A stretch of DNA of 57,287 nt from a virus (IMGVR_UViG_3300025869_000014:1-57287); one strand, 5' to 3'. Counted from the stretch's first letter, positions 8,649-57,287 are shown. Notes: generated from the sequence alone by a model not told the origin. Made by a program: numbers and translations.

Positions 8649-8666
8649 TACTTTTCTCCAAATTTA

Positions 8667-13920: not shown

Positions 13921-14118
13921 TTATTGCGCTCTCTCATATCGAGACTTAGCGTCCAAGATCTCTCGCTCTGCTTGAGCTAGACCTTGTATTATTCCGCAGC
14001 ACTTAGTGTACTCCGGATAATCTTTACATCCACCACTGCTTATGTGGTCATTGATGTCTTTCATTTGATCGTTAACATTTGACCTTAAATAGTCAAACAT
14101 GTCTACTTCTTTTGTCAT
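13921..14118 (-). CDS. Small conserved protein downstream of portal
   Basis: 65 aa, G.CKDYPEY...GIIQGL. Confidence 0.7.
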   Translation of the reverse strand: MTKEVDMFDYLRSNVNDQMKDINDHISSGGCKDYPEYTKCCGIIQGLAQAEREILDAKSRYERAQ

Positions 14119-30419: not shown

Positions 30420-30429
30420 GAGATACAAA

Positions 30430-32977: not shown

Positions 32978-33356
32978 ATGCTGAATAAGATACTAGAGTT
33001 CATAGAGTTGATGACTAGTCGTTCGTTCTGGCCCATGTTTGCAATGTTCTTTTTGTTGTTAGCAATGGCAGCTTACACATTACTGGAGTCAATCTAATGG
33101 TAGTTAAGAGAAATAAAAACGGGTTGTTCGTTGCGACAGTGAACGACAGAGATGGTAATTTGTGCGCGGGATTTTCCAAAGATAGAATTCAAGCAATGAT
33201 CTTTTGCTTTGAGTTGCTTATTGAATGAGCTACCCCAAAGACGAGGGCTGGAAGAACCTAAGCTACCCGAAAGAAGAACTTACTCTGGAAGAAATAAAGA
33301 AGATGATGCAGAAAAAAGAAGACAGAGAGAATGCAAAGAAGAGGCCGCTTAATTAG
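32978..33356 (+). other. Three coupled micro-ORFs (32978-33097 hydrophobic, 33097-33228, 33225-33356)
   Basis: TAATG and ATGA overlaps fill the gap up to the convergent gene. Confidence 0.45.
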
Positions 33357-39300: not shown

Positions 39301-41103
39301 CGTCATGTCTGGAGAGCTAACCCCTACCAGCACATCAAATACATTTGAGTATTTATCGCCCAATACTTGTTTGGCTTCTTCAAGCGTAAACTCTTGAACC
39401 TCAGGTAGACCTTTCTTTCTTCGATCAAAGTTAATTTCTTGAGCGGCTGTTAGGTTTGAAAGATCTCGATAAAGTTTTTCACCCTTATCTGAGTACGGTG
39501 GGACTCCATACTGATTGGTATGAAGTTGATCTATTGTTTGATTCTCTTGGTAAGGAGACTTAGGAGACTGAGTTGTGCCTGCAGCTTCGTTAAGTACCGC
39601 TGAAGTAACAGTGAAACGCTTTGGCCTGTTTAGTTTTTGACCAATAACATACAAGCTTTCTGATTGCTCAGGGGTGTAGGCTTCCGGGGCAAGATCAAGG
39701 GAGTCTATTACGGAATCGTTTACTCTTCTGTTGATCAGCTCTTGATTAAGATTTGCCATCAAATGGATAGCAGATTCTCTTTCCTGCTCAGGCTGTCCGA
39801 ACTGCTCACCTGTCTCAGAATGAACTACCTTAAAGACAGAACCTCCCGGCAATTTATCTTCGACAATGTCAAACTTGCCTGACTCTGGGAAAGCTCCGTC
39901 TTTTTGTATGCCGCTTCTTGCTATCTGACTAGCGTACTCCGCAGCCCTGTCAATCATGTTTACTTGTCGGCCAAGATACGGCTGTGCTGGGTCGAACTCA
40001 AACTGCTCGCCTTCAAAAGTTTCAGTGCCATACAAGGGATCTGGAACGACTACCGAATCTCTTTCTACTTTTAGCTTGGCAGCTTCTGCCATGTCATAGA
40101 GGTCTTGGCTTGCCTTTTCATCTTCGTCTCTAAATGCTTGCTCTCTTTCTTGCTCAGCATCTAGAACCATTTTAGATCTGCGCCGAGTTACACCGCTGGT
40201 AATTGCATCTAGCAGGGCACCAGAGCCAGCGCCTACAGTGAAGTCGTCCCATAGAGATTCTGTATAGTTAACGTTGTCAGAATAAACGCCGTCTTCAATA
40301 GCGTTCTGCAACAAGCTTGCGGCTACTTCCTGAGTTCCTTCAACAGCGCCCTCAGCCACCGCGCTACTAACAGCATTAAAAGCCTCTTCGTTTTTCCTTG
40401 GGTTCTTAAACCTTGCTATCTTTTTTAAAACGTTCAGGGGCGCAATGGCTTCTGATGCCCCAACAAAACCACCAAGAGCTATAGCTAAATCTTCTTGTCC
40501 CGCAGATACTTCTTCTCCTCTGGCTCTGGCAGCAGCTACCCTATCAGCTTGCTCTGAAGCTCCGGCACCAACGCCTGCTCCAGTTGCGCCAACCGTGGCC
40601 GCAATTCTCTGCCCTCTTGCTGCTGCACCAAGACCTTTAGCTCCAAGACCAAAAGCACCGCCCGGAACAAAGAACGAACCTATAGAGCCTAGACCTTCGC
40701 TAAGCTTTACTAGATAGTTATCTTTGTATGCATCGCCAAGACCAAGGCTTTCATTGAGAGCCTGCTTGCCCTCATTCGCTAGCCGAATAAGTTCGTTTTC
40801 ATCGCCGCTATCTATTAGATCATCAAGACCTATCAGGTCTGTGCCTACATCAGCAAGTTCTGCTAGACCAGCGCCAGCAGAAAGAAGGCCAGAACCAAAT
40901 CCTCTGACCAATCCTTTTCCCATCTCAACAGGAACACCTGCGTAATAGTCAACGCCTTTGGGCTGATTAAAACCCATTTGCCTGTGATACTCCTCAAGAT
41001 CTAAGTTTGAGTAGTATTTATTGTACAGACCATCAACAACTTCTTCGTCAGTAAGATCCTTATACTGAGGATATTTTTCTCTGAAAACAGTTAGACCGCT
41101 CAT
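33349..41103 (-). CDS. Large polyvalent internal virion protein (metallopeptidase-like, ART-like, LPD38-like)
   Basis: 2,584 aa; HEIVH; YYHGT...HFT...VYPVYL...GYDS; HDAFGH; C-terminal YYSEIPDY...TIPLPYG. Confidence 0.75.
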   Translation of the reverse strand: MSGLTVFREKYPQYKDLTDEEVVDGLYNKYYSNLDLEEYHRQMGFNQPKGVDYYAGVPVEMGKGLVRGFGSGLLSAGAGLAELADVGTDLIGLDDLIDSGDENELIRLANEGKQALNESLGLGDAYKDNYLVKLSEGLGSIGSFFVPGGAFGLGAKGLGAAARGQRIAATVGATGAGVGAGASEQADRVAAARARGEEVSAGQEDLAIALGGFVGASEAIAPLNVLKKIARFKNPRKNEEAFNAVSSAVAEGAVEGTQEVAASLLQNAIEDGVYSDNVNYTESLWDDFTVGAGSGALLDAITSGVTRRRSKMVLDAEQEREQAFRDEDEKASQDLYDMAEAAKLKVERDSVVVPDPLYGTETFEGEQFEFDPAQPYLGRQVNMIDRAAEYASQIARSGIQKDGAFPESGKFDIVEDKLPGGSVFKVVHSETGEQFGQPEQERESAIHLMANLNQELINRRVNDSVIDSLDLAPEAYTPEQSESLYVIGQKLNRPKRFTVTSAVLNEAAGTTQSPKSPYQENQTIDQLHTNQYGVPPYSDKGEKLYRDLSNLTAAQEINFDRRKKGLPEVQEFTLEEAKQVLGDKYSNVFDVLVGVSSPDMTETTENFGSVGARLAASRQEYQDQKRTLEEVSSVLQEKNIASSVDSPEVGYLLEKIVNETNVESMSPSQRMYLVQELRKLPVVAQPASLPDFRPKTYTRKQYNAAVQYVTETGDGTVENIESQIGDIGSAKRTRKVASDLQKAIKKTGLINNKDEVVTRTTLPAPERFEPEIKPYAETVSEDAANLEKLLNEDLKGMGLDDIRVRVLDELKIGPVTRKGELILAGKEGEDIRQETEGYYRPRSNTVFLALDRIKQGARDQTPEARREALTEILDHEIVHGVRNLDLWKEKEWRLLENLTRKKIFPGRGNVTFFNDAQERYPDLSAVGQMEEAVAEIIRYGRKDKKLITGKPKSLVERMYSFFEKTGNALSGTGFQSFDDVLNRLEKGEIGSRERDRIRTLQATEKRLGAVPDRGIGLSRDVKVLTPETEEEEISASRQRDRAAEQGFDTNTTYYHGTGKTNIKKFRSNLAGSFDSATNDIIAGHFTVNPEFANMFAPDRSDFSDPENAADAGTVYPVYLRQGNSFDPGRISREKDSGGELQALSREVDNLSSPVYKSYADKMMEQMGYPASDTEARDSIINGRRKQLQQIVGSITQRPSDVGFAELEALSPFVRSAGYDSYVDYENSIQDMATGIAMFKPSDIKGVHAQYDPSGVPQGYEYADDIMFSKQGTDDTIQEDTTGGVSDEQARRLGQRNRDRGRRLQSRSFTPLEGAPAIQGATGPIPEIVAIAEEYAEDYGLPERKQRSYVKVPKDRGERLAKAYDEMRNDPQNPAVKKAYKDLIRQTKNQYKALTDAGYEFTFYDSESDPYDGNPFNAMRDLRATKRMAVYGTYDGYGTEGITDSEIENNPMLEDTGLRWKDQSGDRKLVTANDLFRAVHDAFGHGIEGSGFRARGEENAWQAHAKLFTGPALHALTSETRGQNSWLNYGPYAENNRTAKIEDTVFAEQKIGLMPDWTWTEGLEYEDPVTESRARVESKDELKAAEQKAAEFSERNPPSTIMNSLDNSPEVQQSIIDQEILGEPFSFQTKGYSFKDKFVFWAADKFTGLKDAEREINKYRASLGLSPLKATESAYIGEESISGILGNKMRRFEDERKKPLAKKIADSGYSLDEVDEFLILRHAIERNEKVAIRDSQRDVELNPGSGKLKTGQALTNSFVKRKMKERYDMDWNSSTGTWSGGNGRGKKLQSVAADVDKIVNETIDGTIEGGLIDKDSAEGIRSAYKYYAPLRGKDIEDDYAENLIIGSSISTKGKEFLRAMGRESAAQSPLGHVLLNAERSMARGTKNKQFGERLVNLVKSSPDAEFWRVISPEDPRYMRAFEKKFTYVGNDKDLQGQTFSEIPPDANRKDYIQKIVLKRDNLSPGFDKDLIGVKLDGQQVYVELADKRLRDAILGMDSGTADNLIQKFGVVNRFLSMMNTSLNPEFVIGNFSRDVQTAIFNILGEQDMSQGKAKDQKLVAKVIKDVIPSMGVFYKAARNFSVKDGTFVGNLSGIDPVDQADVREYMESGAKADWFHSRPPEDQTKTIQSMIDMANGTFKGNFQRRYQSVMKFVEDSNASVENAVRLATFKASRDELLNAGVPRPEALAQAASLAKNLTINFNRKGNAGDLVNSLYLFFNASVQGTANFARGLFGPNMNPLSSEASRVKQGAVTSLIMFGALSALRAEEESEENPETGRSYYSEIPDYVKERNIVIMADDGKNHYTIPLPYGYNVFHSLGQNVFEMSNGHISPLKATSNVTSAFLGSFSPIGFSSPAPTIAQPFIEIAKNENFFGSPIYRENFPTGTQLPESSMSMSTTRTPFKWMAKLSNSLIGGNEQQSGALDVSPDVLEHLAEFALGGAGTFGMRNLDAFEKWQKGEDLKAREIPFLRRIKGEPDERVSMGDFYERKIKLEQLEARLDVLRGADRINFRKNNAQKLRTLRDLERAEDQLRKLREQRKRIKAIASRSPQDALKMGKAEEEVYDRMNSVYNRFNKSYDKKVGRTN

Positions 41104-43508
41104 TATGCCGTAGGTATCAAATCGGTAGGATTAACATCATCGAATGGAGACTTTGTTTTTGGCTGACCAGAACTTGGAGCAGCAATGTCTTTAGTGTTTA
41201 AAATACCTTGAGTGAATTTTTGCAAAGCAGCGTTCCATTCTGCAGGAGAGTGTTCAGGATTGTCCGTAGCCCAGTTTTTCATGGCCTCGTCTATTGGTTT
41301 AACATAAAGCCTAAGCTGAGCAGCCGTCAAGTCTCTCTCAGAATTCTTGGTTATTTCTTTGTATCTTTCTACTGTTGCCTGAGCAATAAGATTTTGCAAT
41401 TGCCTGTCGCTTTCCGCTTTACTTGCAGCGTTAATTGCCTTGGCAATCTCCGCTTCAAAGTTTGCTCTTGCAATAGCAGCGTCCTTATCCATACCTGCAG
41501 CTAGAAACTCCTTCTGCCGCTGGTCTGCATAGTCTGCCGTTACTGCATCAAGTTTTTTATTGTAGTTAGCAACGGCTGCTTCTCTTCCTTTAACGCCCAT
41601 ATTCATCTGAGCTTCTTTTGAAACCATCTCCATGCGACGAGCTAAGCTGTTTTCAGCAGATGATTCTGCTCTAGCTTCTTTCATAATATCAGAAGATACT
41701 CTGCTAGCGCCTCTCAACCCTTCGGATACATTCCCTTCTGCAATGCCTGCGCCTAACTGAATCAACGCTTGAGCGCCAGCATCTTTTTTAGCATCTTCTT
41801 TTATTTTTCTAACTCTTCTTTCTGACTCCGTTATAAGTCCTTTGTAATCAGGGGCAAAGCTTGAGTAATCTGTGCTAGGCCTTTCTCCGCTTAACTTGCC
41901 AAGCAATTCTATGTACCCAGTCGATGTGCTGTTTCTTAGATTTTCAGCAACCGAGTCTATCTCATTGATTCTTTCTTGAGCTTTAGAGAAATCAGTAGGA
42001 ACAACTGGTTTGTTTTGTAGCCCTCTCAACCCTTCGGAAACAGCTGCGAAACCGGATGGGTCTTGCATTGCATCTATCACGGCTGAGTGATCAAGACTGT
42101 ATTGAGGATCATTCCTCCCAAGCCATGACTCTTTTTGTTCGACGGTTGCGTTGGCAGGAGGCTGAGCAACAGCCTCGACAATGTTAGTGCTGGCAGGAAC
42201 TTCAGCTACACCATTGTTTAAGTACTGGTCGAGAGCCCCTGTCCGTTCTATGTATTTATCAAACTGAGTTCTTGCTCTTTCATCAGCTCTAAAGGGACTA
42301 GAAAAAGCTCTTGGCACATTTTCTCCAAGAATTCTTTTGTACATCTCCCCTCTAGTTTCAACTACGGGGTCTATTGTGCGGTCATAAAACGTTCGTGAAC
42401 CTTTAGTGTAGGGTAACTCTGAGTTAAAAATACTGTCTGATAATTCTTCTATTGTACTGCCCTTAGGCTGAAACAGCTTACTTTGATCAGTCTCCACTTT
42501 AATCTCAGGACTTGATTCATTCATGGCAGCATTGATCATTGCGTTATTCGGCTGGGTTCCAGAAGAAAGCGCCAGCTTTTCTCCATCACCTATTACCGCG
42601 CTACTGTCTCTTACCTTGGTAATAAGACTCTCAAGAGGCGCGTAAGATATTCCGGGATTAGTTCCCATTAGTTCTTTGGCCGCAGTGCTGTCTGGGTATC
42701 TACTAGCTAGGTTTTGAAGCTGAGAGGCTACATCGTCAGGCTCAGACAAGTCTCCTACTACACCGGACATAAAGTTAGGGTTGAGCCCTAACTCACCAAT
42801 CTTGTTGCTTATCTCGTCAGGACTAGCCATTGCCAACAAAGTTTCTAGCCTATCATCTTGAGAATAATCACCAAGCGTAGATCCATATAAGTCACCTACT
42901 TGATCTTGAATACCTAGGCTTTGTTTCCTCGCAGTATTTCTTTGGTCACCCCTAAGCTGTAGAGCTGCTCTCTCTAGATCACCAATCTGTTGACCCATAG
43001 GCATAACTTCTTGATTGTATGCCGCCAAGTCTTGTAAATAAGGGCTGGTAAAAGGTGCGTCTTGACCGCCAGCCATTCTAACAACACCGCCCGCAGCCAT
43101 ACCCATTGGCTGTTGCATGCTCATCTGAGGAGGCATACCCATTGGCGGTTGACCCATTGGAGGAGGTGGCCCCATTGGAGGCTGGCCCATCTGAGGAGGC
43201 ATGCCCATCTGAGGAGGTGGCCCCATCTGTGGGGGCTGACCCATTGGAGGTTGGCCCATCTGTGGAGGTTGGCCCATTGGGGGTTGAGAACCTAGTTCAG
43301 CAATGCCACCACTAAGAATCTGATCCTTTACAGTTCCTTGCGGAGACTGCTCACCCTGTTGAGAAAACCTTTTCCTCATGTCCTGTCTTCTCTGTATTTC
43401 GGACACAATAAGATACTGAGGTAGCGGGCCAGAAGGACGCTGAGCTTCCTGCATTAGAGATTGATCCGGCAGTCCTTTGATTAAATCTTCTTGCTCAAAT
43501 ATGTTCAT
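41103..43508 (-). CDS. Internal virion (ejection) protein
   Basis: 801 aa; N-terminal PPMGQ repeats, MAAGGV motif, helical C-terminus. Confidence 0.65.
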   Translation of the reverse strand: MNIFEQEDLIKGLPDQSLMQEAQRPSGPLPQYLIVSEIQRRQDMRKRFSQQGEQSPQGTVKDQILSGGIAELGSQPPMGQPPQMGQPPMGQPPQMGPPPQMGMPPQMGQPPMGPPPPMGQPPMGMPPQMSMQQPMGMAAGGVVRMAGGQDAPFTSPYLQDLAAYNQEVMPMGQQIGDLERAALQLRGDQRNTARKQSLGIQDQVGDLYGSTLGDYSQDDRLETLLAMASPDEISNKIGELGLNPNFMSGVVGDLSEPDDVASQLQNLASRYPDSTAAKELMGTNPGISYAPLESLITKVRDSSAVIGDGEKLALSSGTQPNNAMINAAMNESSPEIKVETDQSKLFQPKGSTIEELSDSIFNSELPYTKGSRTFYDRTIDPVVETRGEMYKRILGENVPRAFSSPFRADERARTQFDKYIERTGALDQYLNNGVAEVPASTNIVEAVAQPPANATVEQKESWLGRNDPQYSLDHSAVIDAMQDPSGFAAVSEGLRGLQNKPVVPTDFSKAQERINEIDSVAENLRNSTSTGYIELLGKLSGERPSTDYSSFAPDYKGLITESERRVRKIKEDAKKDAGAQALIQLGAGIAEGNVSEGLRGASRVSSDIMKEARAESSAENSLARRMEMVSKEAQMNMGVKGREAAVANYNKKLDAVTADYADQRQKEFLAAGMDKDAAIARANFEAEIAKAINAASKAESDRQLQNLIAQATVERYKEITKNSERDLTAAQLRLYVKPIDEAMKNWATDNPEHSPAEWNAALQKFTQGILNTKDIAAPSSGQPKTKSPFDDVNPTDLIPTA

Positions 43509-46500
43509 TAACCACCGCCTCCTAAGGCTCTATATAATCCGACTCCACCAATACCTGCTCCCAAAGCCTCGCTATAAGGACTTGGTTGTGATCCATACGA
43601 AGCCGTGGTCGATCCCGGAGTAATCGGCAAGCCTCTTAGTATATTGCTAAACATACTTAGTTGCTCTCTTGGGAACGCTTGTTGTCTCAAGAAGTCTTGA
43701 TAACCCATGTCCATGCTGCGCTGACCCATATCTCTCTGAATCTGCCCAGCGGCCTGAAGATTACGCAATCTTTCATAGCCCATCTGCTGCTCTTGTCCGC
43801 CAAAGGTGCCAAGCATTCTTGAAGCCTCAAGCTGCTGATTCCTTGTTGCTTGATCTGCGCCAAGTCCAGCCAATCCAAGCCTAGCCGCTGTTTCTCCAGA
43901 TCCAACATTAAACTGTTGAGCATCCATTCGCATTTGATTTTCAGCTTGTCTTGCAGCATCTTCTTGTTGCTGTGCATTAAGGCCAAGTCGAGATGCTTCC
44001 TGTCTAGCCTGCTCTCCAGCTTGATAAACGGCTCTTTCTTCTTGTTGTTGAGCAATCCTAAGCTGTTCGTTTTGATTAAACTGATTTTGTCTAAACTCTT
44101 CTGCAGCTCTATTAGAAGCATCTTGCTGTTCTTGTGCGCTAAGCCCAAGCCTTGCTGCTTCTTGTCTCGCTTGCTCTTGTATCTGAAACGTTTGATTTTC
44201 AAACTCTTGAGCTTGCTGACTAGCTTGTTCTGATTGCTGGAAAGCAGATTGTCTATATCTTTCTGTTGCTTCCCTGCTAGCTTGCTCTTGCTGTTGAGCA
44301 TTCAATCCTAAACGAGCGGCCTCTTGTCTTGCTTGCTGCCCTGCATTGAAGGCATCTTGATCAAACGATTCTTGCTGCTGCCTAAATGATTGAGTTTGTT
44401 GGAACGCGCTTTGACGAAACTCTTCAGAAGCTTGTTTTGCAGCTTCTTCTTGTTGCTGGGCATTCAATCCTAGTCGGGCAGCTTCTTGCTTTGCTTGCTC
44501 TCCTGCATCAAAAGCCTGTTGATTTATTCTGTCTTGTTGAACTTCAGACTCTAATCGTTGGCTTTCTGCACTCTGTTTGAATTGTTCGATAGCTCTTTTA
44601 GATGAGTCATCTTGTTCTTGAGCAGACAATCCTAATCTAGCTGCCTCTTGCTTGGCTTGTTCTCCGGCTTGAAAAGCTCTTAAGTTTATATCTTCTTGTT
44701 GAACTTCTGCTTGCAGCTTTTGTCCTTCAGCTGATTGTCTAAATTCTTCCTGCGCTCTACGAGCAGCCTCTTCTTGTTCTTGAGAAGAAAGGCCCAACCT
44801 TGCAGCTTCTTGGCGAGCAGACTCTCCAAGCTGGAACACTTGGTTTTGTAGCTCTTGCCTTGTAACTCTTCCGGCTTCTGACTGCTGAAAGGCAGATTGT
44901 CTAAACTCTTCTTGCGCCCTACGAGATGCTTCTTCTTGCTCTTGCGCTGAAAGCCCTAGCCTTGCTGCTTCTTGACGAGCAGATTCTCCTGCCTGAAAAG
45001 ATTGAACATCCAGCTCTTGTTGTCTTACTCTTCCAGTTTCTGTTTGCTGGAACGCAGACTGCCTAAATTCTTCTTGGGCACGACGAGAAGCTTCTTCTTG
45101 TTCCTGTGCCGAAAGTCCCATTCTGGCTGCTTCTTGTTTTGCTTGTTCGCCAGCCTGAAAAGCTCTCAGGTTTATATCTTCCTGTTGCGTTTGAGCCTGT
45201 AATTGTTGGCCTTCTGAGCTTTGTCTAAACTGTTCTTGAGCTTGCCTTGCCGCTTCATCTTGCTCTTGCGCCGACAATCCTAGTCGAGCAGCTTCCTGTC
45301 TCGCAGCCTCTCCTGTTTGATATGCTTGAGCATTTAGTTCTTGCTGTCTTACTCTGCCAGACTCTGTTTGTTGAAATGCAGATTGACTAAGTTCTTCTTG
45401 GGCCCTCTTAGCAGCTTCTTCTTGCTGCTGGGCATTTAAACCTAAGTCTGCAGCTCTTTGACGAGCCGATTCCCCAGCTTCAAACGACCTAATCGCCATG
45501 CTTTGCTGTTCTTGCCTAGCTTGCTCAGAGGTTTGAAAAGCCCCTTGACGAAGCCTTTCCGATTCTTGTCTAGCTCGATCCTTTGCCTCACCTGTACTTA
45601 GCCCAAGTTCAGACTCTTGAAGTCTTGCTGCTCTATCCGCTTCAAATGACTGAAGAGCTTGCTGATAAGCTGCTTGACCACCCTGTGATTGAATGTCTGA
45701 TAGTTGCTGGCCTAGGTTTCTTTCTCTTTCAGACTGCATGATGGCTTCTCTATATCCACCAAGGCCGCCAGATGCTGCTGCTTGTTGAGATATCTGAGAT
45801 CCTGCAATGTCAGATTGTTTTTGCGCTTCTCTTTTTTCAATGTCCGTAACTAATTGTTGATACGGATTCATGTATTTTTCTAAAGTTGCAGCATCAGCTA
45901 CAGTACCCGCTTGAAAAGCTGGGCCTGTATCAATATCTCCTGCGTACTGACTTTGTAATTCTCTAGCTGTATAGTCTTGACCGAGTTCTCTTGCAACATA
46001 TCCGGGATCAAAATCTCCGGCTTGATAACCAGACTCTAAATCCCTTGCTTGATAGTCTTGTTGAAGGTCTCTTGCTTGATAACCCGGATCAAAATCTCCA
46101 GCTGTATATCTGGAATCTCCGGGAACAGTAAGTCTTCCTGCTTCAAAATCACCTGCCTGATAACCCGGATCAAAATCTCCTGCAGTGAATTGTGAGTTTA
46201 AGTCTCTAGCCGAATAACCTTGACCAATATTCCCGGCAGAATATCCCGGATCAAATGTGTCACCAATAAAATTAGATTGAAAATCGATTGGGGCATAACC
46301 TTGATTCAAATCTCTTGCTTGATAGCCGGGATCAAAATCCCCGCCATAATACTGAGAAGCGCCCGGAGCAGTTATTTGTCCTGCAGCAAAGTCATTAGGA
46401 TTGTATCCCGGATCAAACTGAGTGCCTTGATATTGATTTCTTCTAGGCCCAGAAAGCTGAAGACCCTCTCTTGTAGTAGCATTATAGCCGGGGTCAAAAC

Positions 46501-47089
46501 TTCCTGAATCATACTCAGAGCTTAAATCGCCAGCCTCATACTGACTCCTTCTTTCTCCCGGCCTGTAACCAGAATAAAAGTTTCTGTCCTGAAGGTTACT
46601 GTCAATAGAACCCGGAACATATCCTTGAGTAGCGGTGCCTGCATCATAGCCAGAATCAAAAGAAGTTGGACTGTATTCGGCTTGCCTTTGCCCTGCCTCG
46701 TAACCTTGACCAAGTTTTCCTGCTGCATAACCGGGATCAAACATGCCCGCTTGATAATTAGATGCAATCTGCTGGGGATTAAAACCTCCAGCAATATTCA
46801 TCCCCATATTAGAATCTTGATATCCTATTTGAGAAGCAATATCCGAAGCTTGCCTCAGCTGCAGAGGAGTGCCTGCAGAAGCCATGTCGAACATGCCTTG
46901 CATACCCATTTGCTCGTAAGGAGTAAAGTCTGCTATTCGTTGACCGGGATAAGCTTCGTATGGACGAGTAGTCTCATACATGGATCGACCAAGCATTTCT
47001 TCAAAATACGGACGAGCGTATTCTGGCAAGTTGCTTGTTGTTTGAACAACCTCTTGTGGCCCGCTTGAGCCTCCGCCGCCTTTACTCAT
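43508..47089 (-). CDS. Gln-rich DNA-ejection/pilot-like protein with two repeat arrays
   Basis: 1,193 aa; Gly-rich ends, central YMNPYQQ core; function inferred from position among internal virion genes. Confidence 0.65.
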   Translation of the reverse strand: MSKGGGGSSGPQEVVQTTSNLPEYARPYFEEMLGRSMYETTRPYEAYPGQRIADFTPYEQMGMQGMFDMASAGTPLQLRQASDIASQIGYQDSNMGMNIAGGFNPQQIASNYQAGMFDPGYAAGKLGQGYEAGQRQAEYSPTSFDSGYDAGTATQGYVPGSIDSNLQDRNFYSGYRPGERRSQYEAGDLSSEYDSGSFDPGYNATTREGLQLSGPRRNQYQGTQFDPGYNPNDFAAGQITAPGASQYYGGDFDPGYQARDLNQGYAPIDFQSNFIGDTFDPGYSAGNIGQGYSARDLNSQFTAGDFDPGYQAGDFEAGRLTVPGDSRYTAGDFDPGYQARDLQQDYQARDLESGYQAGDFDPGYVARELGQDYTARELQSQYAGDIDTGPAFQAGTVADAATLEKYMNPYQQLVTDIEKREAQKQSDIAGSQISQQAAASGGLGGYREAIMQSERERNLGQQLSDIQSQGGQAAYQQALQSFEADRAARLQESELGLSTGEAKDRARQESERLRQGAFQTSEQARQEQQSMAIRSFEAGESARQRAADLGLNAQQQEEAAKRAQEELSQSAFQQTESGRVRQQELNAQAYQTGEAARQEAARLGLSAQEQDEAARQAQEQFRQSSEGQQLQAQTQQEDINLRAFQAGEQAKQEAARMGLSAQEQEEASRRAQEEFRQSAFQQTETGRVRQQELDVQSFQAGESARQEAARLGLSAQEQEEASRRAQEEFRQSAFQQSEAGRVTRQELQNQVFQLGESARQEAARLGLSSQEQEEAARRAQEEFRQSAEGQKLQAEVQQEDINLRAFQAGEQAKQEAARLGLSAQEQDDSSKRAIEQFKQSAESQRLESEVQQDRINQQAFDAGEQAKQEAARLGLNAQQQEEAAKQASEEFRQSAFQQTQSFRQQQESFDQDAFNAGQQARQEAARLGLNAQQQEQASREATERYRQSAFQQSEQASQQAQEFENQTFQIQEQARQEAARLGLSAQEQQDASNRAAEEFRQNQFNQNEQLRIAQQQEERAVYQAGEQARQEASRLGLNAQQQEDAARQAENQMRMDAQQFNVGSGETAARLGLAGLGADQATRNQQLEASRMLGTFGGQEQQMGYERLRNLQAAGQIQRDMGQRSMDMGYQDFLRQQAFPREQLSMFSNILRGLPITPGSTTASYGSQPSPYSEALGAGIGGVGLYRALGGGG
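43988..45607 (-). repeat. Ten 162-bp (54-aa) repeats LGLSAQEQEE...QARQEAAR
   Basis: Exact 54-aa period counted in the translation. Confidence 0.9.
45944..46753 (-). repeat. Ten 81-bp (27-aa) repeats xAGDFDPGY...
   Basis: Exact 27-aa period counted in the translation. Confidence 0.9.
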
Positions 47090-47601
47090 TCTTCAAGCCT
47101 CTTTTCATAAACAACGTATGATCTTTCAAAATCATCTTGCTTTAGCCACTGCCAGAATCCCATTCTAGCTGTAGCTTCTATGCCTTTGCAGTTGTTATCT
47201 CTAGCCCAGTCATGAAATCTATCAAGCATATCCCAGACCCATTCATTAAACTTATCGCCACCCAAGAACTGTATAGCAAGCATTCTTTTATTAGGATAAT
47301 CAACAAGCTCTGTTGTACCAACACCACTGATATTTTTGTCTGAATCGAAAGCAACCCAAAGATGTTGCTGCCCATTTAGTATGGATGCAAAAAGCATTTC
47401 CATGCTCCATCGGCCTTTAGATCTAGCGATAGCTTTCGCTAATTGCTCGCTTACATCAGGCCACAAAGTAGCCAAGTAATTAGACGGAACCAAAGCAATA
47501 GTATGAGTAGCCTCTCCTCGCTCTGATCTAGACTTTACTTTAGGCTCCCTAGAAAGATCCTTTATATTTTTTAGATTAGAAAACTCTATAGGTTTTATCA
47601 T
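47086..47601 (-). CDS. GNAT-fold-like virion-assembly protein
   Basis: LWV...TT...YP...L.I.FLGG...WARDNNC..IE..AR.G. Confidence 0.55.
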   Translation of the reverse strand: MIKPIEFSNLKNIKDLSREPKVKSRSERGEATHTIALVPSNYLATLWPDVSEQLAKAIARSKGRWSMEMLFASILNGQQHLWVAFDSDKNISGVGTTELVDYPNKRMLAIQFLGGDKFNEWVWDMLDRFHDWARDNNCKGIEATARMGFWQWLKQDDFERSYVVYEKRLEE

Positions 47602-50585
47602 GCGGGTAACACTCCTCCTATGCTCATTGGCGCTGGCTGTCTTAACGTTCCAGTTCTTTCTTGTCGAACTCTATCAAGCATCTGATCAAGCTCGCCAACA
47701 CCAGCATCGGTACTACCATCTCCTAAGCCAGAAACAACATCAGCAGGAATAATGTATTCACCGGGACTAACAGCTACAGGCTGGCTATTTCCTATCATAC
47801 CCGGAACCATGTCATCCATCCCGCCTCCTGCTCCAATAATTTCTCCTTGTTTTTGAGAGCCGGGAACAATTTCTTCTAATACTTTTTCTCTAAGTATTTG
47901 AAAAGCTTCTGGGCCAAATTGATCAACAAAGCTAGCAATTATCGCACTAGACTCTTCTTCGCTTAATTGACCGGATATTGCTTGTACTGCACGTTCAATA
48001 AGTAATTGACCATTTGCTTCTGCTGTTTCATTCATTGGCATAGATTCAAACTCTCCACCTTCTGCCATTAATTTCCTTAGTTTACCTTCCGATTTATACC
48101 CGCCTCTTCCTTTTTTTGTTTGACGAGGAGGAGCCGAAGAATTTTCTTTTACAGGCTGTCTTGAAGAAGGTGCCGGAGTTTTAAAAGCTCTCAATGCTTC
48201 TAAGTCTATATCACCAGATCCTTTGTATACCTTGGGGCCAGCAGTGCCAAGTCCATCTGGGCCTATTCCTCTACCACCCAAAGTTCCAATCATATCGTTA
48301 ACTGGAGAATTAATGCTTGGAGGGGGAGAAACGGCAACAGGTGGAGGTGGCATCATAGGCATTGGTGCAGGCTGAGGAATAGGTGGCGGTGTCATTGGTG
48401 CAGGCTGACGAATAGGTGGAGCAGGTGGCATCATTGGCGCAGGTGGAGGTGCAACAGCAACAGGTGGAACAACTGGCGCTTGTATCGGAGGAATAACTGG
48501 CGCTGAAACAGGTGAAGGCTGCTGCATAAGCGAAGCAATACCTTCTCTTTCCTCAAACCTTGGCATAGGCATTGGCGATACTGGAGGTGCCAAGGTATAC
48601 ATTGTGTCTGGGTTATTAGATTTTCCGAGGGCTTGAGAAATATCTGACAGCTCATTAGGAGCCGTCATTGGTGGAGGTACTGGCACTTGAACAGGTGAAA
48701 TGATCGGTGGAGATGCTATTGGTGCAGGTGCGGGTGCAGGTGCAGAAGCGGAACGCCTCGCTGCATTTATTTTTCTAACCCGCTCATTATTAAAATCATA
48801 AGCATTATTCCTAGCATTTAAAAATGAGGCTTCATCTAAAAATCCTTCTGAGCCAAAACTTTGAACCATGCTCCCGTCATCATTATAAGAAACAGCATAA
48901 GGTTCAAAATTATCATTTGTCGATACTGGTGCAGGCGGAATAATCGGTGGTGGTGCAACAGCGACAGGTGGAGGCATTATTGGTGCAGGCTGGGGTGCCA
49001 TTGGCGGAGGTGGAGGTGCAACAGCAACAGGTGGAGGAGTATTATTCCCCACAGTTCTCGTTGTTTCAGCCAAGATGTCATCGTAATTAATTGAAGGCTC
49101 ATTTCCTATGCCTTCAGAAACATTGTAATTATACTGAGGATTCACTGGTGATTGGGCGGAAGCTTCTTGATTATTTAGTACTTGATCAATAGATCCGACT
49201 GTTGCATTGCCTTCTGGGGTAGATAAATAATCACTAATTTGTTGATTAAATCCACCAAGACCTAGCTGAGAAAGATCTAAGTTAGAAAAATCAACACCAG
49301 ACAAATCAACTCCATAATTAGAATCTCCAGTAGGTTCTAAAATAATATCTTCTGGGCTTTCTGGAGTTCTTTTTGGAAAATAATTTATCTCAGCATCAAA
49401 ACCGGGGCGAGTTCCTTGAAGTTCCGCTGAAGAAATAGCTTTTGGGCCTCTGATTCCAGATTGTCTTTGTGCAGACCCAAAACTTCCAACTGGCCCAGAG
49501 TTTCCAAAGTTTAAGTTATTAAATATTTCACCACCAGTAAACATTTGAACAGCGCCGCCAGCTAATTGCTGCAATCCTTTAACACTTTCTGCGTAATGGT
49601 TAGGGTCTATCGAGGTCACACCCCCCATTGAATATCTTGGAATTTGGTAATCTTTGTAAGCGTAATCACTTTCTAACTGATCGTAAGCACCGCTCATATT
49701 GCCAAGAGCCCTTTGATACTCAGCTTCACGATCTCGTTCAAATCTTTTGTTGTCTTCTTCAGCAAGCTCTCTTGCTTCAATTTCTGCTATTTTCCCTTCT
49801 CCAACCCCAACAGCGGCCAAGTTAGCTGGCTTCATTAAAGCTTTGCCAAAAGCTCCGGGCTGTTTGAACGGAGCAAGAAATCTATCCCCTGCAGTTTGAT
49901 CTAATCTGAGAGAATCAATCTGACCTGAAAGGTCTGCTACCTTTGCATTTGCTGCATTTTTAATTCCTTCTGCACTAGTAGAAGATATTGCTGGAGACAT
50001 TTGCAATGCTTGATTTGTTGCCGATCCTGTAATCGAGCTTGTTCCTACGTTACCTGCATTCTTTATTGCTTCGGCTACAGGGTCTGCAACTTCTCCTGCA
50101 GTCAATGCTAAGTTTTTGCCAGCTTCTGCAGCAGCTGTTGATGCATCTCCTAATGCTGCTGTAGCGTCAATTATTTCTGGGTTTAATGCATCTCCAGCAG
50201 CGCCTAAAACTTGACCCAAACCAAAACCAGTAATGCCAGAAAGCAATCCTTTTTTAAGATCTCCTGTTACAGCAGTAGTAGCAAGGCCAGAGCCAATAGC
50301 ACCTGCTGCTGCAGAACTTAATCCAGCTCCACCTAATATGCCGCCTAAAGTTGATCCAGCAAGCAACGAAGATCCAAACATGCTACCTAATATTGGCGCT
50401 AAAAATGGCAAGAAGGCTTCTGGCTGTCCCGTTACAGGATTAATTGTTAGCTTTCCTGTTGGAGACAAAGCTGCTATCCCTTGCACTTCTGCAGGGTTCA
50501 TGTGAACTAGCATACTGTCGCCATAACGACCATAGCGAGCCATATCCTCAGCTCTTGCCTGTAAAGGCGGTTGATTTTGATACAT
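47598..50585 (-). CDS. Internal virion protein, Pro-rich
   Basis: 995 aa; GRYGDSMLVHMNP...NPVTGQPEAF N-terminus; G.GGGMDD...SPGEYIIPADVVSGLGDGS C-terminus. Confidence 0.65.
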   Translation of the reverse strand: MYQNQPPLQARAEDMARYGRYGDSMLVHMNPAEVQGIAALSPTGKLTINPVTGQPEAFLPFLAPILGSMFGSSLLAGSTLGGILGGAGLSSAAAGAIGSGLATTAVTGDLKKGLLSGITGFGLGQVLGAAGDALNPEIIDATAALGDASTAAAEAGKNLALTAGEVADPVAEAIKNAGNVGTSSITGSATNQALQMSPAISSTSAEGIKNAANAKVADLSGQIDSLRLDQTAGDRFLAPFKQPGAFGKALMKPANLAAVGVGEGKIAEIEARELAEEDNKRFERDREAEYQRALGNMSGAYDQLESDYAYKDYQIPRYSMGGVTSIDPNHYAESVKGLQQLAGGAVQMFTGGEIFNNLNFGNSGPVGSFGSAQRQSGIRGPKAISSAELQGTRPGFDAEINYFPKRTPESPEDIILEPTGDSNYGVDLSGVDFSNLDLSQLGLGGFNQQISDYLSTPEGNATVGSIDQVLNNQEASAQSPVNPQYNYNVSEGIGNEPSINYDDILAETTRTVGNNTPPPVAVAPPPPPMAPQPAPIMPPPVAVAPPPIIPPAPVSTNDNFEPYAVSYNDDGSMVQSFGSEGFLDEASFLNARNNAYDFNNERVRKINAARRSASAPAPAPAPIASPPIISPVQVPVPPPMTAPNELSDISQALGKSNNPDTMYTLAPPVSPMPMPRFEEREGIASLMQQPSPVSAPVIPPIQAPVVPPVAVAPPPAPMMPPAPPIRQPAPMTPPPIPQPAPMPMMPPPPVAVSPPPSINSPVNDMIGTLGGRGIGPDGLGTAGPKVYKGSGDIDLEALRAFKTPAPSSRQPVKENSSAPPRQTKKGRGGYKSEGKLRKLMAEGGEFESMPMNETAEANGQLLIERAVQAISGQLSEEESSAIIASFVDQFGPEAFQILREKVLEEIVPGSQKQGEIIGAGGGMDDMVPGMIGNSQPVAVSPGEYIIPADVVSGLGDGSTDAGVGELDQMLDRVRQERTGTLRQPAPMSIGGVLPA

Positions 50586-54020: not shown

Positions 54021-54446
54021 TTACCTCTCTTGGTACTCGCCAGATTTAATCATTTGACAAAGCTCTAACGCTCTATCTCCAACTTGCTTTGCCCATCTGC
54101 TGTCGTAAAATTCATCTCCAGCTTTTTCAAAATTGTTTTCAGCCATGTAAGCCAATGCTTTAACAAACCCTCTTAATCTTGTTTGCCCAATATTAAATGA
54201 CAAATCTATAAGAGCTTCTTTTCTTACCATATCTAAAGTGTTAAACCAAAAGTATTCTTTAGACAGCTCTTCTCGGCATCTGTTGATGTCGTTGTTTAGC
54301 ATGTAATCTATTTCATCATCTGAAATACCAAGCCCAGATTCAGATATGTTTCTGCCAACACCAATGGTCTCGTATCCGGCGGAACACATGTAGACTTTGT
54401 CCCTAACTCCTTCATGCCTTCTGAGCATTTTTATCAATCTATTCAT
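54021..54446 (-). CDS. Endolysin, GH24 lysozyme
   Basis: HEG...Y.C..GY.TIGVG...FNIG...DSRWAKQVG.RA. Confidence 0.9.
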   Translation of the reverse strand: MNRLIKMLRRHEGVRDKVYMCSAGYETIGVGRNISESGLGISDDEIDYMLNNDINRCREELSKEYFWFNTLDMVRKEALIDLSFNIGQTRLRGFVKALAYMAENNFEKAGDEFYDSRWAKQVGDRALELCQMIKSGEYQER

Positions 54447-56575: not shown

Positions 56576-57287
56576 TTATCCTTCTAAGGTTGTGATTCTT
56601 GCTGTTAATGATTCAATCAAGGCTTGCTGCTCTTGGATTGCTTTGACTAGGATGGGTATTAAGGCAGCTTCTGCTACTTCCTGAGAGCCATCTTCTCTAT
56701 CGTCCCATAGTCTAAAGCCGTCTTTAATGCTGTCATCTGCATCTATAGCTGCTTTGACTTCTTGGGCTATAAAGCCGTGGTTGGTGTCAGAGTTTTTAAA
56801 GACTTCGGTTGAGTCAGCTTTGTAAGCTCTAAAGGTTTCAGGTAGTTCGCCAAGTGTCTTGTACTTAAAGGTACGAGGCTGTAGAGCGTTAATAAAGCTA
56901 AGACCTGCTGTAGAGTCTGTGATGTCTTTCTTGTAGCGTTCGTCAGATACTGCGGCCCATGTTGCTGTACCATGTGCGGCTCTAATGTCATTAGCATCAA
57001 TACCAAGAGTTGTAAACCCTGCACCTGCTACAATGTTAAAACCTAAGCCTATGCAGTTGTTACTACCTGCGGCTTCAGCTTCAACCTGTGCGCCTATAAG
57101 AGTGTTTTGAGTCCCGCTTGTAACATTATCACCTGCAAGACCACCCACGAATGTGTTGTTTACGCCTGTGGTTACTGCGGCTCCTGCTGTATACCCCACG
57201 GCTGTGTTAAAAGAATCTGTAGCTGATGTAAAGTTTTGCGCTTCTAAAGCGCCTACACCAATCGCTGTTGTTTTACTTCCTAATGTA
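56576..57287 (-). CDS. Tail fibre C-terminal part with Peptidase S74 intramolecular chaperone
   Basis: SDERYKKDI...L.P..F.Y...GFIAQEV...LVKAIQE; continuation of the 1-5213 frame. Confidence 0.9.
   Translation of the reverse strand, partial: TLGSKTTAIGVGALEAQNFTSATDSFNTAVGYTAGAAVTTGVNNTFVGGLAGDNVTSGTQNTLIGAQVEAEAAGSNNCIGLGFNIVAGAGFTTLGIDANDIRAAHGTATWAAVSDERYKKDITDSTAGLSFINALQPRTFKYKTLGELPETFRAYKADSTEVFKNSDTNHGFIAQEVKAAIDADDSIKDGFRLWDDREDGSQEVAEAALIPILVKAIQEQQALIESLTARITTLEG

What the first reader, a model, noticed from the sequence alone, without database searches (positions are those of the whole stretch)
43988..46753. Mirror-ordered, co-expanded repeat arrays in a putative ejection protein: a fold-back molecular ruler
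Seen: a central core (YMNPYQQ...AYQQA) is flanked by two unrelated arrays with the same copy number, 10x27 aa (3x9, FDPGY) before it and 10x54 aa (3x18, LGLSAQEQ) after it. Counting outward from the core, irregular units fall at positions 3, 6 and 7 on both sides (N side: QAGDFEAGRLTVPGDSRY, NPNDFAAGQITAPGASQY, NATTREGLQLSGPRRNQY; C side: SEGQQLQAQTQQEDIN, AEGQKLQAEVQQEDIN, AESQRLESEVQQDRIN); the other seven are regular on both sides. Inference: the chain folds back so that each extended 9-mer (about 3 A per residue) packs antiparallel on an 18-residue helix (1.5 A per residue), giving a rod or tube of up to about 80 nm whose length changes only by paired duplications at two separate DNA sites. 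I know of no description of this architecture.
Basis: partly seen in the sequence, partly recalled or inferred. Interest (0 to 1): 0.85.

Follow-up and report, generated by a model that had tools for sequence, protein, structure and literature searches.

The report
Length-matched fold-back stalk, phage protein
A 1,193-residue virion protein of a marine phage carries two unrelated repeat arrays that have grown and shrunk together across hundreds of relatives, one residue of the first for every two of the second, which points to a thin strand laid back along a helix to give a stalk or tube of adjustable length.

Summary
The gene (window 43508-47089, minus strand, 1193 aa) has ten exact 27-aa (3x9) Tyr/Gly units, a conserved core, then ten exact 54-aa (3x18) helical units; odd units sit at mirror positions 3, 6 and 7. 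In 264 distinct relatives, the spacer after the core is twice the spacer before it (227 of 264 within 15 aa of the line; slope 1.93-1.97). Close relatives step by exactly +9/+18 aa. Insertions and deletions fall at the same unit index counted outward from the core. The odd C units face Tyr-less N units at the same index in 21 of 23 cases. The nearest relative has lost 54 aa and 108 aa at matching places. So the arrays are coupled in mirror register, most simply by an extended, probably polyproline-II-like, strand lying antiparallel on a helix. Physical contact was not shown. Whether the pairing is within one chain, and whether the protein is a tail tube or an ejected conduit, stays open. The design has precedents (streptococcal AgI/II stalk; phage A1002 tail tube). 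This scan noted similar arrays before on other DNA (e1-6274084, e1-5891772).

The parts
43508..47089 (-). Whole gene, 1193 aa (P0001), virion protein of the late 'ejection-protein' gene block
   Evidence: ORF list and translation; conserved with the same neighbours in 80 viral contigs
46850..47089 (-). Conserved N-terminal domain, about aa 1-80 (three predicted helices in the minimal relative)
   Evidence: HMM anchor 'nd' built from relatives; AF2 of minimal relative, helices 23-41, 57-72, 76-89, pLDDT 82-91
46742..46849 (-). Four degenerate 9-mers (aa 81-116) that continue the N array outward, indices 31-34
   Evidence: 9-mer layout counted from the core
45932..46741 (-). N array: ten exact 27-aa units = thirty 9-mers (aa 117-386). 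Tyr or Phe sits at position 5 of 26 of 30 9-mers. Gly 15%, Asp 11%, Tyr 10%, Pro 6%
   Evidence: TRF period 27 nt at 45987-46098
46337..46498 (-). N odd units 4 and 5 (aa 198-251), middle 9-mers without Tyr = indices 20 and 17 from the core
46094..46174 (-). N odd unit 8 (aa 306-332), Tyr-less 9-mer = index 8 from the core
45608..45931 (-). Conserved core (aa 387-494), the most conserved part of the family; predicted pair of long helices joined by a Gly-rich loop; proposed tip of the stalk
   Evidence: 2796 protein clusters match it at E<=0.001; AF2 of minimal relative, helices 120-160 and 165-214
43988..45607 (-). C array: ten exact 54-aa units = thirty 18-mers (aa 495-1034). Gln 23%, Ala 17%, Glu 15%. 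One apolar position per helical turn, plus Phe at position 5 of two 18-mers in three
   Evidence: TRF period 162 nt; helical in AF2 of relative P0002, pLDDT 70-90
45122..45283 (-). C odd unit 3 (aa 603-656); its middle 18-mer without Phe = index 8
44474..44797 (-). C odd units 6 and 7 (aa 765-872); middle 18-mers = indices 17 and 20
43511..43987 (-). Partial eleventh unit (aa 1035-1070) and conserved C-terminal domain (aa 1071-1193)
   Evidence: HMM anchor 'cd'; only part of P0001 that tblastn finds in cultured phages
47086..47601 (-). Upstream 171-aa gene, always directly in front of the family gene (167-173 aa in relatives)
   Evidence: phrog_7642, unknown function
47598..50585 (-). Upstream 995-aa protein with a Gly-rich hydrophobic N-terminal stretch and long Pro-rich tracts; same block
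   Evidence: translation; conserved position; no family hit
41103..43508 (-). Downstream 801-aa protein with Pro/Gln/Met/Gly short repeats; same block
33349..41103 (-). Downstream 2584-aa giant protein with an LPD38 polyvalent-protein domain; end of the block
   Evidence: Pfam PF18857 E 1.8e-42; phrog_14770/616

Best explanation
The gene encodes a virion protein of the DNA-delivery gene block of an uncultured marine podophage related to the HTVC023P/HTVC027P pelagiphages. [quoted passage not shown] Between them lies a two-layer stalk. The N-side array of 9-residue Tyr/Gly units runs as an extended strand, most likely polyproline-II-like. It lies antiparallel on the C-side array of 18-residue alpha-helical units. 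Nine extended residues (about 3 A each) cover the same 27 A as eighteen helical ones (1.5 A each). Nine residues are three polyproline-II turns and eighteen are five alpha turns, so every repeat shows the same face to its partner. Each 9-mer has its own 18-mer partner. The Tyr of the strand faces the Phe of the helix, and both are lost together in the odd units. A unit gained or lost on one side leaves an unpaired bulge, so selection keeps only matched changes. This lets the stalk evolve from almost nothing (about 350-aa relatives) to about 80-90 nm here, the longest seen. The helix also carries an Ala/Leu stripe fit for helix-helix packing. I therefore think that several copies build the wall of a long DNA conduit, with helices inside and strands outside, either as a distal tail tube or as a tube assembled on ejection. 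Shown: periodicity, the 1:2 law, mirror register, matched indels. Inferred: contact, polyproline-II conformation, fold-back within one chain, oligomeric tube, function.
For: Exact periods 27 and 54 aa, ten units each. Length law across the family: 227 of 264 distinct proteins lie within 15 aa of L_C = 2 L_N + 15; Theil-Sen slope 1.93 (1.90-1.96); OLS on the 98 on-line length classes 1.974 +/- 0.011, r 0.998. In an unbiased sample, cluster representatives found with the core alone, 100 of 150 could be parsed, 74 of 100 lay on the line against 11.8 by shuffling (maximum 27 in 10,000), and the slope was 1.79. The close subfamily has 15 length classes from (160,196) to (385,646), all on L_C = 2 L_N - 124 within a few residues. 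Phylogenetic control on a tree of 90 proteins built from conserved parts only: contrast slope 1.86, r 0.92. Of 27 sister pairs, 15 differ; 7 are exactly 1:2, 3 more are within 4 aa, 1 is off by 14, and 4 are discordant. Register: 21 of 23 odd C 18-mers (16 of 18 in 13 distinct architectures) sit at the index of a Tyr-less N 9-mer when both are counted outward from the core. The best other offset gives 10 and the best parallel offset 7; the background Tyr-less fraction is 12%. A second marker pair, a Leu-for-Tyr 9-mer with one special 18-mer type, shares its index in P0001 (25), L003 (10), L007 (13), L006 (19) and L009 (7). Indels of 8 compared pairs fall at the same index +/-1 on both sides, including two separate paired indels in L012/L013. 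The nearest relative L002 (93% nt identity) lacks 162 nt in the N array and 324 nt in the C array at matching indices. A shortened odd pair (21 aa and 43 aa) is present or absent as a pair in P0005/L067. A subfamily with unrelated repeats has periods 32 and 66 aa, and P0023 to P0026 differ by +32/+66. The C array is helical in AF2. Its apolar positions are spaced one per turn with an 18/5 period, plus a separate Phe line; the N array has Tyr at position 5 and Phe/Leu at position 1. Role: minimal relatives match phrog_4287 'DNA ejection protein' over their whole length (E 1e-15 to 1e-20). The block 171 aa - family gene - 480-960 aa - giant protein is conserved in all loci examined. One relative carries an SLT lytic domain. 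Established geometry supplies the rises (alpha-helix 1.5 A and 3.6 residues per turn; polyproline II 3.1 A and 3 per turn). An alpha/polyproline-II fold-back stalk exists in AgI/II (PMC7732690, PMC3707005 passages).
Against: No structure prediction shows the contact. AF2 of relative P0002 leaves the whole N array without secondary structure at pLDDT about 32 (pTM 0.30). It also breaks the C array into helices of about 50 residues at each Gly of the L-G-L sites, which would fit a zigzag rather than one long rod. The N array has only 6% Pro, so polyproline II rests on geometry, not on composition. Column-by-column mutual information between paired 9-mers and 18-mers barely exceeds that of shifted pairings (mean 0.47 against 0.40-0.48). 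Among the seven regular units of this protein there is no mirror similarity. Exceptions exist: 18 of 264 proteins lie more than 25 aa off the line, and 4 of 15 changed sister pairs are discordant. One is P0003/P0004, where the N side loses a unit while the C side gains one. P0001 itself hits no PHROG or Pfam family, so the role rests on relatives and on synteny. No solved structure matches by sequence or by fold. Stalk length does not track the lengths of the neighbouring proteins (Spearman 0.18 and 0.12), so nothing shows what, if anything, it measures.
Confidence: 0.7

Rival explanations
1. The same strand-on-helix pairing, but between chains. Two or more unfolded-back subunits lie antiparallel with their cores overlapping, so the N array of one chain lies on the C array of another (a domain-swapped dimer or lattice). 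The rod would then be about twice as long, with a base at each end.
For: All the comparative evidence demands only that N unit j and C unit j, counted from the core, lie side by side. An antiparallel dimer with the dyad at the core gives the same index rule. Tube-forming phage proteins are oligomers (PMC13730344 section 10; PMC11445570 passages).
Against: The core is predicted as a pair of long helices joined by a tight Gly-rich loop, the natural turn of a hairpin. The two described analogues (AgI/II, A1002 gp37) fold back within one chain. No test here separates the two.
Confidence: 0.2
2. The paired arrays do not form a straight rod but a compact zigzag. Each 54-aa unit is one helix of about 50 residues that turns at the L-G-L site. 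Each 27-aa unit is one strand that turns at its Asp-Pro-Gly. The layers of helix plus strand stack side by side.
For: AF2 breaks the helices at every L-G-L. By the index rule, the Asp-Pro-Gly of the N unit and the L-G-L of the C unit fall at the same boundary, between indices 3k and 3k+1. A folded form would fit inside a capsid.
Against: Lengths change by single 9/18-aa steps (classes 160/196, 169/214, 177-181/232, 187/250, 196/268; sister pair L045/L054), which would give layers of unequal length. The apolar stripe with exact 18/5 period runs on through the unit borders. AF2's global arrangement is unreliable (pTM 0.30).
Confidence: 0.2
3. The two arrays do not touch each other. Each binds side by side along the same third, periodic partner (another virion protein or DNA), and that partner enforces equal physical length and common register.
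For: A shared ruler would also give equal physical lengths and matched indels. The block holds other long repeat-bearing proteins (801 aa, 995 aa).
Against: The lengths of the two neighbouring proteins do not follow array length (Spearman 0.18, P 0.20, n 52; 0.12, P 0.42, n 47). Arrays range from none to 34 pairs in otherwise syntenic phages. The joint loss of Tyr on one side and Phe on the other at the same index is most simply a direct contact.
Confidence: 0.07
4. Chance or shared mutational history: two independent low-complexity arrays that happen to be long in the same lineages.
For: Within this one protein the mirror match is only about 1 in 120 before allowing for counting choices, and the regular units show no mirror similarity.
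Against: The slope of 2 holds across 98 length classes with r 0.998. Seven sister pairs are exactly 1:2. Indel positions match. Shuffling gives 11.8 against 74 of 100. No inverted DNA repeats link the arrays; 4 short pairs only.
Confidence: 0.01

Closest known systems
Streptococcal antigen I/II adhesins (SpaP/P1, SspB, BspA): fold-back stalk of the alanine-rich A repeats (alpha-helix) intertwined with the proline-rich P repeats (polyproline-II helix), V domain at the tip, N- and C-terminal domains locked at the base
   Same: One chain has a helical repeat array and an extended repeat array on either side of a tip domain. The two pair to form a long thin stalk (over 50 nm in SpaP). Aromatic residues interlock with the partner strand, and the termini meet at the base (PMC7732690 and PMC3707005, passages read; Larson et al. 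2010 is known to me only through these, as it is not held). By my recollection the repeats are 82 and 39 residues, the same 2:1 ratio.
   Different: There is no sequence relation (no Pfam hit). The order is reversed: strand first, helix second. The strand is Tyr/Gly/Asp-rich with 6% Pro instead of PxxP-rich, and the tyrosines sit on the strand, not on the helix. There are up to 34 small 9/18 pairs instead of 3-4 large ones. It is a phage virion protein, not a wall-anchored adhesin.
Tail-tube protein gp37 of Pseudomonas podophage A1002 (Kochitakasuvirus), double-layered tube of 12 subunits (PMC13730344, outline, section 10 and passages read)
   Same: A protein of about 318 aa whose N-terminal part (three helices and long loops) forms an extended outer wall. 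A pair of antiparallel helices docks at the proximal end, and C-terminal helices run back as the inner DNA channel. The minimal relatives here (about 290-350 aa) have the same order of predicted elements. The gene lies just upstream of large virion proteins and a giant one in KPP25, as here.
   Different: No detectable similarity: hhalign probability 0.2% against KPP25 ORF003, which I take to be the gp37 counterpart by length only. There is no tblastn hit of any late protein of the window in KPP25. gp37 has no repeat arrays and no length series.
Periplasmic-tunnel ejection proteins of podophages (T7 gp15, P22 gp20, DEV gp72)
   Same: The position is in an operon that ends in a giant ejected protein. 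They are all-helical tube formers of very variable length (431-982 aa for gp15-like proteins; PMC8954989 section 4 read; PMC11445570 passages). The PHROG label of the minimal relatives is 'DNA ejection protein'.
   Different: No sequence or fold match to any solved one. The small upstream protein here (171 aa) shows no obvious hydrophobic helix in its sequence (by eye). None of those proteins is described with coupled repeat arrays.
Antiparallel intramolecular coiled-coil arms of SMC/Rad50/MukB
   Same: N- and C-terminal halves of a head are joined by a long fold-back arm with a hinge at the tip, and the two strands of the arm must match in length (established knowledge). MukB and Smc coiled-coil fragments appear among the weak Foldseek rows (E above 1, not evidence).
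   Different: Both strands there are alpha-helices (1:1 in residues). Here one strand is extended (1:2).

Membership tests
PHROG 4287 ('DNA ejection protein') | Full-length match to the family profile | tested here: inconclusive
   P0001 itself: 0 PHROG families at E<=0.001. Minimal relatives L058, P0128, P0165, P0015 and P0199 match positions 5-321 of 392 with E 2.8e-9 to 6.2e-20. P0001 is tied to them by the core and by three domain HMMs.
PHROG 4287 ('DNA ejection protein') | Protein is packaged in the head and expelled at infection | not testable with these tools
   The label is an annotation, not a tested function. BFVD look-alikes with fused S74 chaperone, tail-fibre and peptidoglycan-binding labels would rather suit an external tail part.
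AgI/II-type alpha/polyproline-II fold-back stalk (structural class) | Helical repeat array and extended repeat array flanking a tip domain, about 2 helical residues per extended residue | tested here: met
   Periods 54 and 27 aa; family slope 1.93-1.97; second subfamily 66 and 32 aa; C array helical in AF2, N array non-helical.
AgI/II-type alpha/polyproline-II fold-back stalk (structural class) | Proline-rich (PxxP) strand in polyproline-II conformation | tested here: not met
   The N array has 5.9% Pro. The polyproline-II reading rests only on the 1:2 ratio and on a period divisible by 3 and not by 2.
AgI/II-type alpha/polyproline-II fold-back stalk (structural class) | Direct association of the two arrays | not testable with these tools
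   Inferred from covariation only. AF2 does not place the N array.
AgI/II adhesin family (homology) | Sequence similarity to A, V, P or C regions | tested here: not met
   No Pfam family at E<=0.01 for P0001 or at E<=10 for its three conserved parts.
A1002 gp37-type double-layered tail tube | Sequence similarity to gp37 or its Kochitakasuvirus counterpart | tested here: not met
   hhalign of alignment A5 against KPP25 ORF003: probability 0.2%, 17 columns; tblastn of 19 window proteins against KPP25 1-50000: no hit at E<=0.01.
A1002 gp37-type double-layered tail tube | Three-part layout: N-terminal helices with extended loops, antiparallel helix pair, C-terminal channel helices, about 320 aa | tested here: inconclusive
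   AF2 of the 353-aa relative gives helices 23-41, 57-72 and 76-89, a loop 90-119, helices 120-160 and 165-214, then helices 219-232 and 242-314. This resembles the description in PMC13730344 section 10. No coordinates could be compared: the entry is newer than the fold library, and the VIA libraries were absent.
T7 gp15 / DEV gp72 periplasmic-tunnel proteins | Similarity to a solved member | tested here: not met
   A profile of 9 minimal relatives against all PDB sequences: 0 hits at E<=1. Foldseek of both models: nothing at E<=0.001.
T7 gp15 / DEV gp72 periplasmic-tunnel proteins | Middle gene of an operon: small membrane protein - tunnel protein - giant ejected protein | tested here: inconclusive
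   The order 171 aa - 1193 aa - 801 aa - 2584 aa is conserved in relatives. But the 171-aa protein is not visibly a membrane protein, and there is an extra gene.
Tape-measure proteins of long-tailed phages | Gene between tail-assembly chaperones and distal tail genes of a sipho- or myophage; one helical protein whose length sets tail length | tested here: not met
   No tail-tube, sheath or chaperone families appear among the 28 window proteins scanned. Array length runs from none to 34 pairs among syntenic relatives.

The most novel reading that the evidence does not exclude
A widespread family of marine phage proteins (2796 clusters match the core) builds its DNA-delivery tube or stalk from a protein 'stem'. 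An extended strand and an alpha-helix pair residue-block by residue-block at 1:2, in mirror register. The pairing evolves like an RNA helix, by compensating insertions and deletions at two distant sites of the gene. Stalk length, from about 0 to 90 nm, would then be a freely tunable trait. It would set how far the phage reaches through the host's surface layers, without any tape-measure protein.
Probability: 0.4. Interest if true: 0.9.

Novelty: new variant of a known kind. Interest (0 to 1): 0.82.

Why it matters
If the pairing is physical, this is one of the clearest natural cases of length co-evolution between two different secondary-structure types. It obeys a quantitative law (two helical residues per extended residue) across hundreds of variants that nature has already tested. 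It offers a simple, sequence-readable rule for a rod or tube whose length is programmed by repeat number, which is of interest for protein design. It gives a handle on an uncharacterised but very common protein of marine podophages, including relatives of the abundant pelagiphages. It also raises a testable question in phage biology: why do close relatives need a DNA-delivery stalk of anything between 0 and about 90 nm? Finally, it shows that indel covariation between repeat arrays can reveal contacts that current structure predictors miss.

Tried and rejected
Family searches with the whole protein gave nothing (PHROGs and Pfam; Pfam on the three conserved parts at E<=10). tblastn of P0001 against cultured phages found only the last 60 residues, in three cyanophages. 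The core alone found nothing. The N domain gave 4 weak hits. The minimal relative hit 3 cyanophage records over 96% of its length, plus one roseophage.

Within-protein tests. The Mantel test on the regular units alone showed no mirror signal. Column-wise mutual information between paired units was inconclusive: excess only at strand positions 5 and 7 against helix positions 5, 9 and 13, driven by the odd pairs.

Structure. AF2 of P0002 (alignment of 43) and of the minimal relative (alignment of 36) gave pTM 0.30 and 0.38 and did not place the N spacer. Foldseek against the PDB had no match at E<=0.001 for either model. BFVD gave only uncharacterised viral proteins. The PDB sequence profile search gave 0 hits. 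The ESM Atlas gave only unnamed viral clusters.

Complex prediction: C-array segment (162 aa, alignment A4) with N-array segment (81 aa, alignment A3). The result was no verdict, score 0.00 against a mark of 0.32, and the controls were not run. It is neither for nor against binding.

A nucleic-acid explanation (the arrays as arms of a DNA or RNA stem) was rejected. Only 4 short inverted pairs were found, and the arms differ twofold in length. A ruler matched to the neighbouring proteins was rejected. Pfam on outliers with long N spacers gave nothing, apart from HTH hits in P0010. Homology to the A1002/KPP25 tail tube was rejected at the sequence level.

Literature. Searches, and the look-up in PMC9599517, found no description of coupled arrays in phage proteins. 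These searches cover only the held open-access library, and supplements were not seen.

Reads. Run X3 has one 138-nt contig (depth 4.8) that skips 146 nt of the N array with 11 other letters between. It is too short, and too unlike on one side (6 differences in 52), to count as a variant. No matching joint was seen in the C array, which contigs cannot exclude. Parts without cover in X4 and X9 say nothing.

My first anchor regular expressions parsed only 53 of 343 proteins and missed P0001 itself. They were replaced (125 of 343) and then checked with HMM anchors (274 of 343). The 69 unparsed proteins are fragments or too diverged and were not examined.

Full report
THE OBJECT. The finding lies inside one ORF, window 43508-47089 on the minus strand, 1193 aa.

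The window is a phage genome. It carries a large terminase (17542-19053), a portal (14115-16586), a major head protein (10385-11323), a primase/helicase, and a long tail-spike-like protein that runs off the window's start. The terminase is 55-59% identical to those of Pelagibacter phages HTVC027P and HTVC023P and two uncultured phages.

The gene sits in a late block read in the order 995 aa, 171 aa, 1193 aa, 801 aa, 2584 aa. The last of these carries an LPD38 polyvalent-protein domain.

THE OBSERVATION.
- The N array is ten 27-aa units with no slip (motif starts at aa 117+27i).
- The C array is ten 54-aa units (starts at aa 495+54i), followed by a 36-aa partial unit.
- Each 27-mer is three 9-mers with Tyr or Phe at position 5 (26 of 30) and Phe or Leu at position 1.
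- Each 54-mer is three 18-mers with one apolar residue per helical turn (positions 4, 7, 11, 14/15, 18). Two of the three also have Phe at position 5.
- In 9-mer and 18-mer indices counted outward from the core they are 8, 17 and 20 on both sides.

Taken alone this is only suggestive. Nominal chance is 1 in 120. The Mantel test gave P 0.017-0.078, and nothing among the regular units. The units are old, at most 74% nt identity to each other. An independent public run holds the whole gene in one 11,174-nt contig with 30 substitutions and no gap.

RELATIVES. Three searches supplied them:
- A word-indexed search gave 138 proteins at E<=0.001.
- A scan of viral contigs with the 106-aa core gave 250 confirmed places, of which 80 loci were kept.
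- An exhaustive search of cluster representatives with the core gave 2796 clusters at E<=0.001.

Gene order is the same in every locus read: a 620-960-aa protein, a 167-173-aa protein, the family gene (351-1033 aa), and a 485-957-aa protein. Minimal members of about 350 aa have almost no arrays. The window's protein is the longest of the 343 pooled proteins.

THE LENGTH LAW. I measured two spacers: from the N domain to the core (L_N), and from the core to the C domain (L_C). I used regular-expression anchors (125 of 343 parsed) and then three HMMs (274 of 343 parsed, 264 distinct).
- 227 of 264 proteins lie within 15 aa of L_C = 2 L_N + 15.
- Spearman is 0.92 and the Theil-Sen slope is 1.93 (1.90-1.96).
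- The 98 on-line length classes give an OLS slope of 1.974 +/- 0.011, r 0.998.
- 18 proteins are more than 25 aa off the line.
- In the close subfamily the classes run (160,196), (169,214), (177-181,232), (187,250), (196,268), (213,304), (223-226,322), (250,376), (268,412), (277,430), (287,448), (295,466), (304,484), (331,538), (385,646). That is +9 aa against +18 aa each time.
- The sample least biased by array length is the set of representatives found with the core alone. There 100 of 150 could be parsed, and 74 of 100 lay on the line against 11.8 by shuffling (maximum 27 of 10,000). The slope was 1.79.
- On a tree of 90 proteins made from the conserved parts only, independent contrasts give slope 1.86, r 0.92.
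- Of 27 sister pairs, 15 differ. Seven are exactly 1:2, three more are within 4 aa, one is off by 14, and four are discordant.

REGISTER. The odd C 18-mers (Phe replaced, a short signature) sit at the same index as a Tyr-less N 9-mer in 21 of 23 cases, in 17 of 18 proteins. The shared indices are 5, 7, 8, 11, 13, 14, 16, 17 and 20, depending on the protein.
- The best other mirror offset gives 10 matches, the best parallel offset gives 7, and the Tyr-less background is 12%.
- The exception is P0004.
- A second marker pair, a Leu-for-Tyr 9-mer with one special 18-mer type, also shares its index in five proteins.

Unit-level alignment of eight pairs of relatives puts the indels at the same index +/-1 on both sides. 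This includes two separate paired indels in L012/L013, at indices 4-7 and 24-25.

The nearest relative, L002 (93% nt identity), lacks 162 nt of the N array and 324 nt of the C array at matching indices. It also has a one-base gap that breaks the frame.

A shortened odd pair (21 aa and 43 aa) comes and goes as a pair. A subfamily with unrelated repeat sequences has periods of 32 and 66 aa and steps of +32/+66.

WHAT IT MEANS. Two arrays at separate DNA sites are held to a 1:2 residue ratio in mirror register. The simplest cause is side-by-side packing of an extended strand on an alpha-helix. Established geometry fits:
- 18 x 1.5 A = 27 A and 9 x 3.1 A = 28 A.
- 66 x 1.5 = 99 A and 32 x 3.1 = 99 A.
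- A 9-residue period is three turns of polyproline II but an odd number of beta-strand residues. Only the former would present every Tyr to the same side. That is my reason to prefer a polyproline-II-like strand despite only 6% Pro.
- An 18-residue period is five alpha turns, a straight helix. Its Ala/Leu stripe is free for helix-helix packing, and the separate Phe line can face the strand's Tyr. This is inference.

The stalk here would be 30 to 34 pairs, about 81 to 92 nm.

WHAT WAS NOT SHOWN.
- AF2 does not place the N array (pLDDT about 32). It breaks the C array at each L-G-L.
- The minimal relative folds as three N-terminal helices, a pair of long core helices, and long C-terminal helices, with modest confidence.
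- No solved structure matches.
- Pairing within one chain cannot be told from antiparallel pairing between chains.
- A zigzag of helix-strand layers remains possible.

ROLE.
- Minimal relatives match phrog_4287, labelled 'DNA ejection protein', over their full length. One relative carries an SLT domain.
- The block resembles the ejection operons of T7 and DEV in ending with a giant protein (PMC8954989 section 4; PMC11445570 passages).
It runs out as an extended outer layer and back as inner helices (PMC13730344 section 10).
- The predicted element order of the minimal relatives resembles that description. There is, however, no sequence similarity to the KPP25 counterpart.
- BFVD look-alikes with fused fibre-chaperone and peptidoglycan-binding labels hint at an external position.
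- I therefore leave open whether the stalk is a distal tail tube or an ejected conduit.
- Array length does not follow the lengths of the neighbouring proteins.

COMPARISON AND NOVELTY.
- The design principle is known from streptococcal AgI/II adhesins: an alpha-helix intertwined with a polyproline-II helix, a tip domain, and termini locked at the base (PMC7732690, PMC3707005, passages).
- Matched fold-back arms are known from SMC proteins.
- What I did not find in print (searches; look-up) is such a stalk in a phage protein family, built from many small 9/18 pairs and documented by a strict length law with position-matched indels.
- The scan has noted similar arrays on other DNA: e1-6274084 (the same 9/18 design, not followed up), e1-5891772 and e1-6312375.

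VERDICT. It is unproven on physical contact and chain topology, and it is mistaken in claiming no precedent. I class it as a new variant of a known kind, of high interest.

Noticed in passing
window 41103-43508 (minus), repeats at 43122-43286: The downstream 801-aa protein has a run of short Pro/Gln/Met/Gly repeats (TRF periods 18, 33, 51 nt), followed by a long, probably helical C-terminal half. No family hit.
   Followed up: partly
window 47598-50585 (minus): The upstream 995-aa protein starts with a Gly-rich hydrophobic stretch that looks membrane-active. It holds several long Pro-rich tracts (TRF rows at 48364-48448, 48721-48745). No family hit. Its length varies from 620 to 960 aa in relatives, independently of the stalk.
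   Followed up: partly
L002 (viral contig), gene position about nt 1540 of the window's gene: The nearest relative's gene has a one-base gap that breaks the reading frame inside the first C unit. It may be a sequencing error or a real defect. The downstream frame continues the array intact.
   Followed up: partly
window 3-5213 and 56576-57286 (minus): A tail-spike-like ORF of at least 1737 aa, with 10-15 repeated matches to virion-protein PHROGs, runs off the window's start. An ORF open at the window's other end may be its beginning, which suggests a circularly permuted, nearly complete genome.
   Followed up: no
proteins P0012, P0023, P0026, P0032, P0045 (relatives, not in the window): A second subfamily has quite different repeat sequences, with periods of 32 aa (before the core) and 66 aa (after it). 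That is 10 2/3 polyproline-II turns against 18 1/3 alpha turns, so the pair might supercoil slowly.
   Followed up: partly
protein P0008 (relative): An outlier with periods of about 45 aa and 72 aa. Each C unit holds an 18-aa Gly-rich piece that, if extended rather than helical, would restore equal physical length (54 x 1.5 + 18 x 3 = 45 x 3 A). This is speculation.
   Followed up: no
L083 (HTVC027P) 30184-31044; L001 (Pag-Yong1) 8290-9240: Cultured phages carry minimal family members. HTVC027P gp83 (287 aa) matches the core HMM at 1e-11. The 317-aa Pag-Yong1 protein, annotated as a peptidase S74 domain protein, matches all three domain HMMs.
   Followed up: partly
window 54021-54446 (minus): A 141-aa protein in the late block matches endolysin and tail-lysozyme PHROGs (phrog_7, E 1.6e-18).
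   Followed up: no
window 45938-46210, run X3: In one public run the assembly breaks up inside the N array, and a short low-depth contig skips 146 nt there. This may be a length variant or a relative.
   Followed up: no
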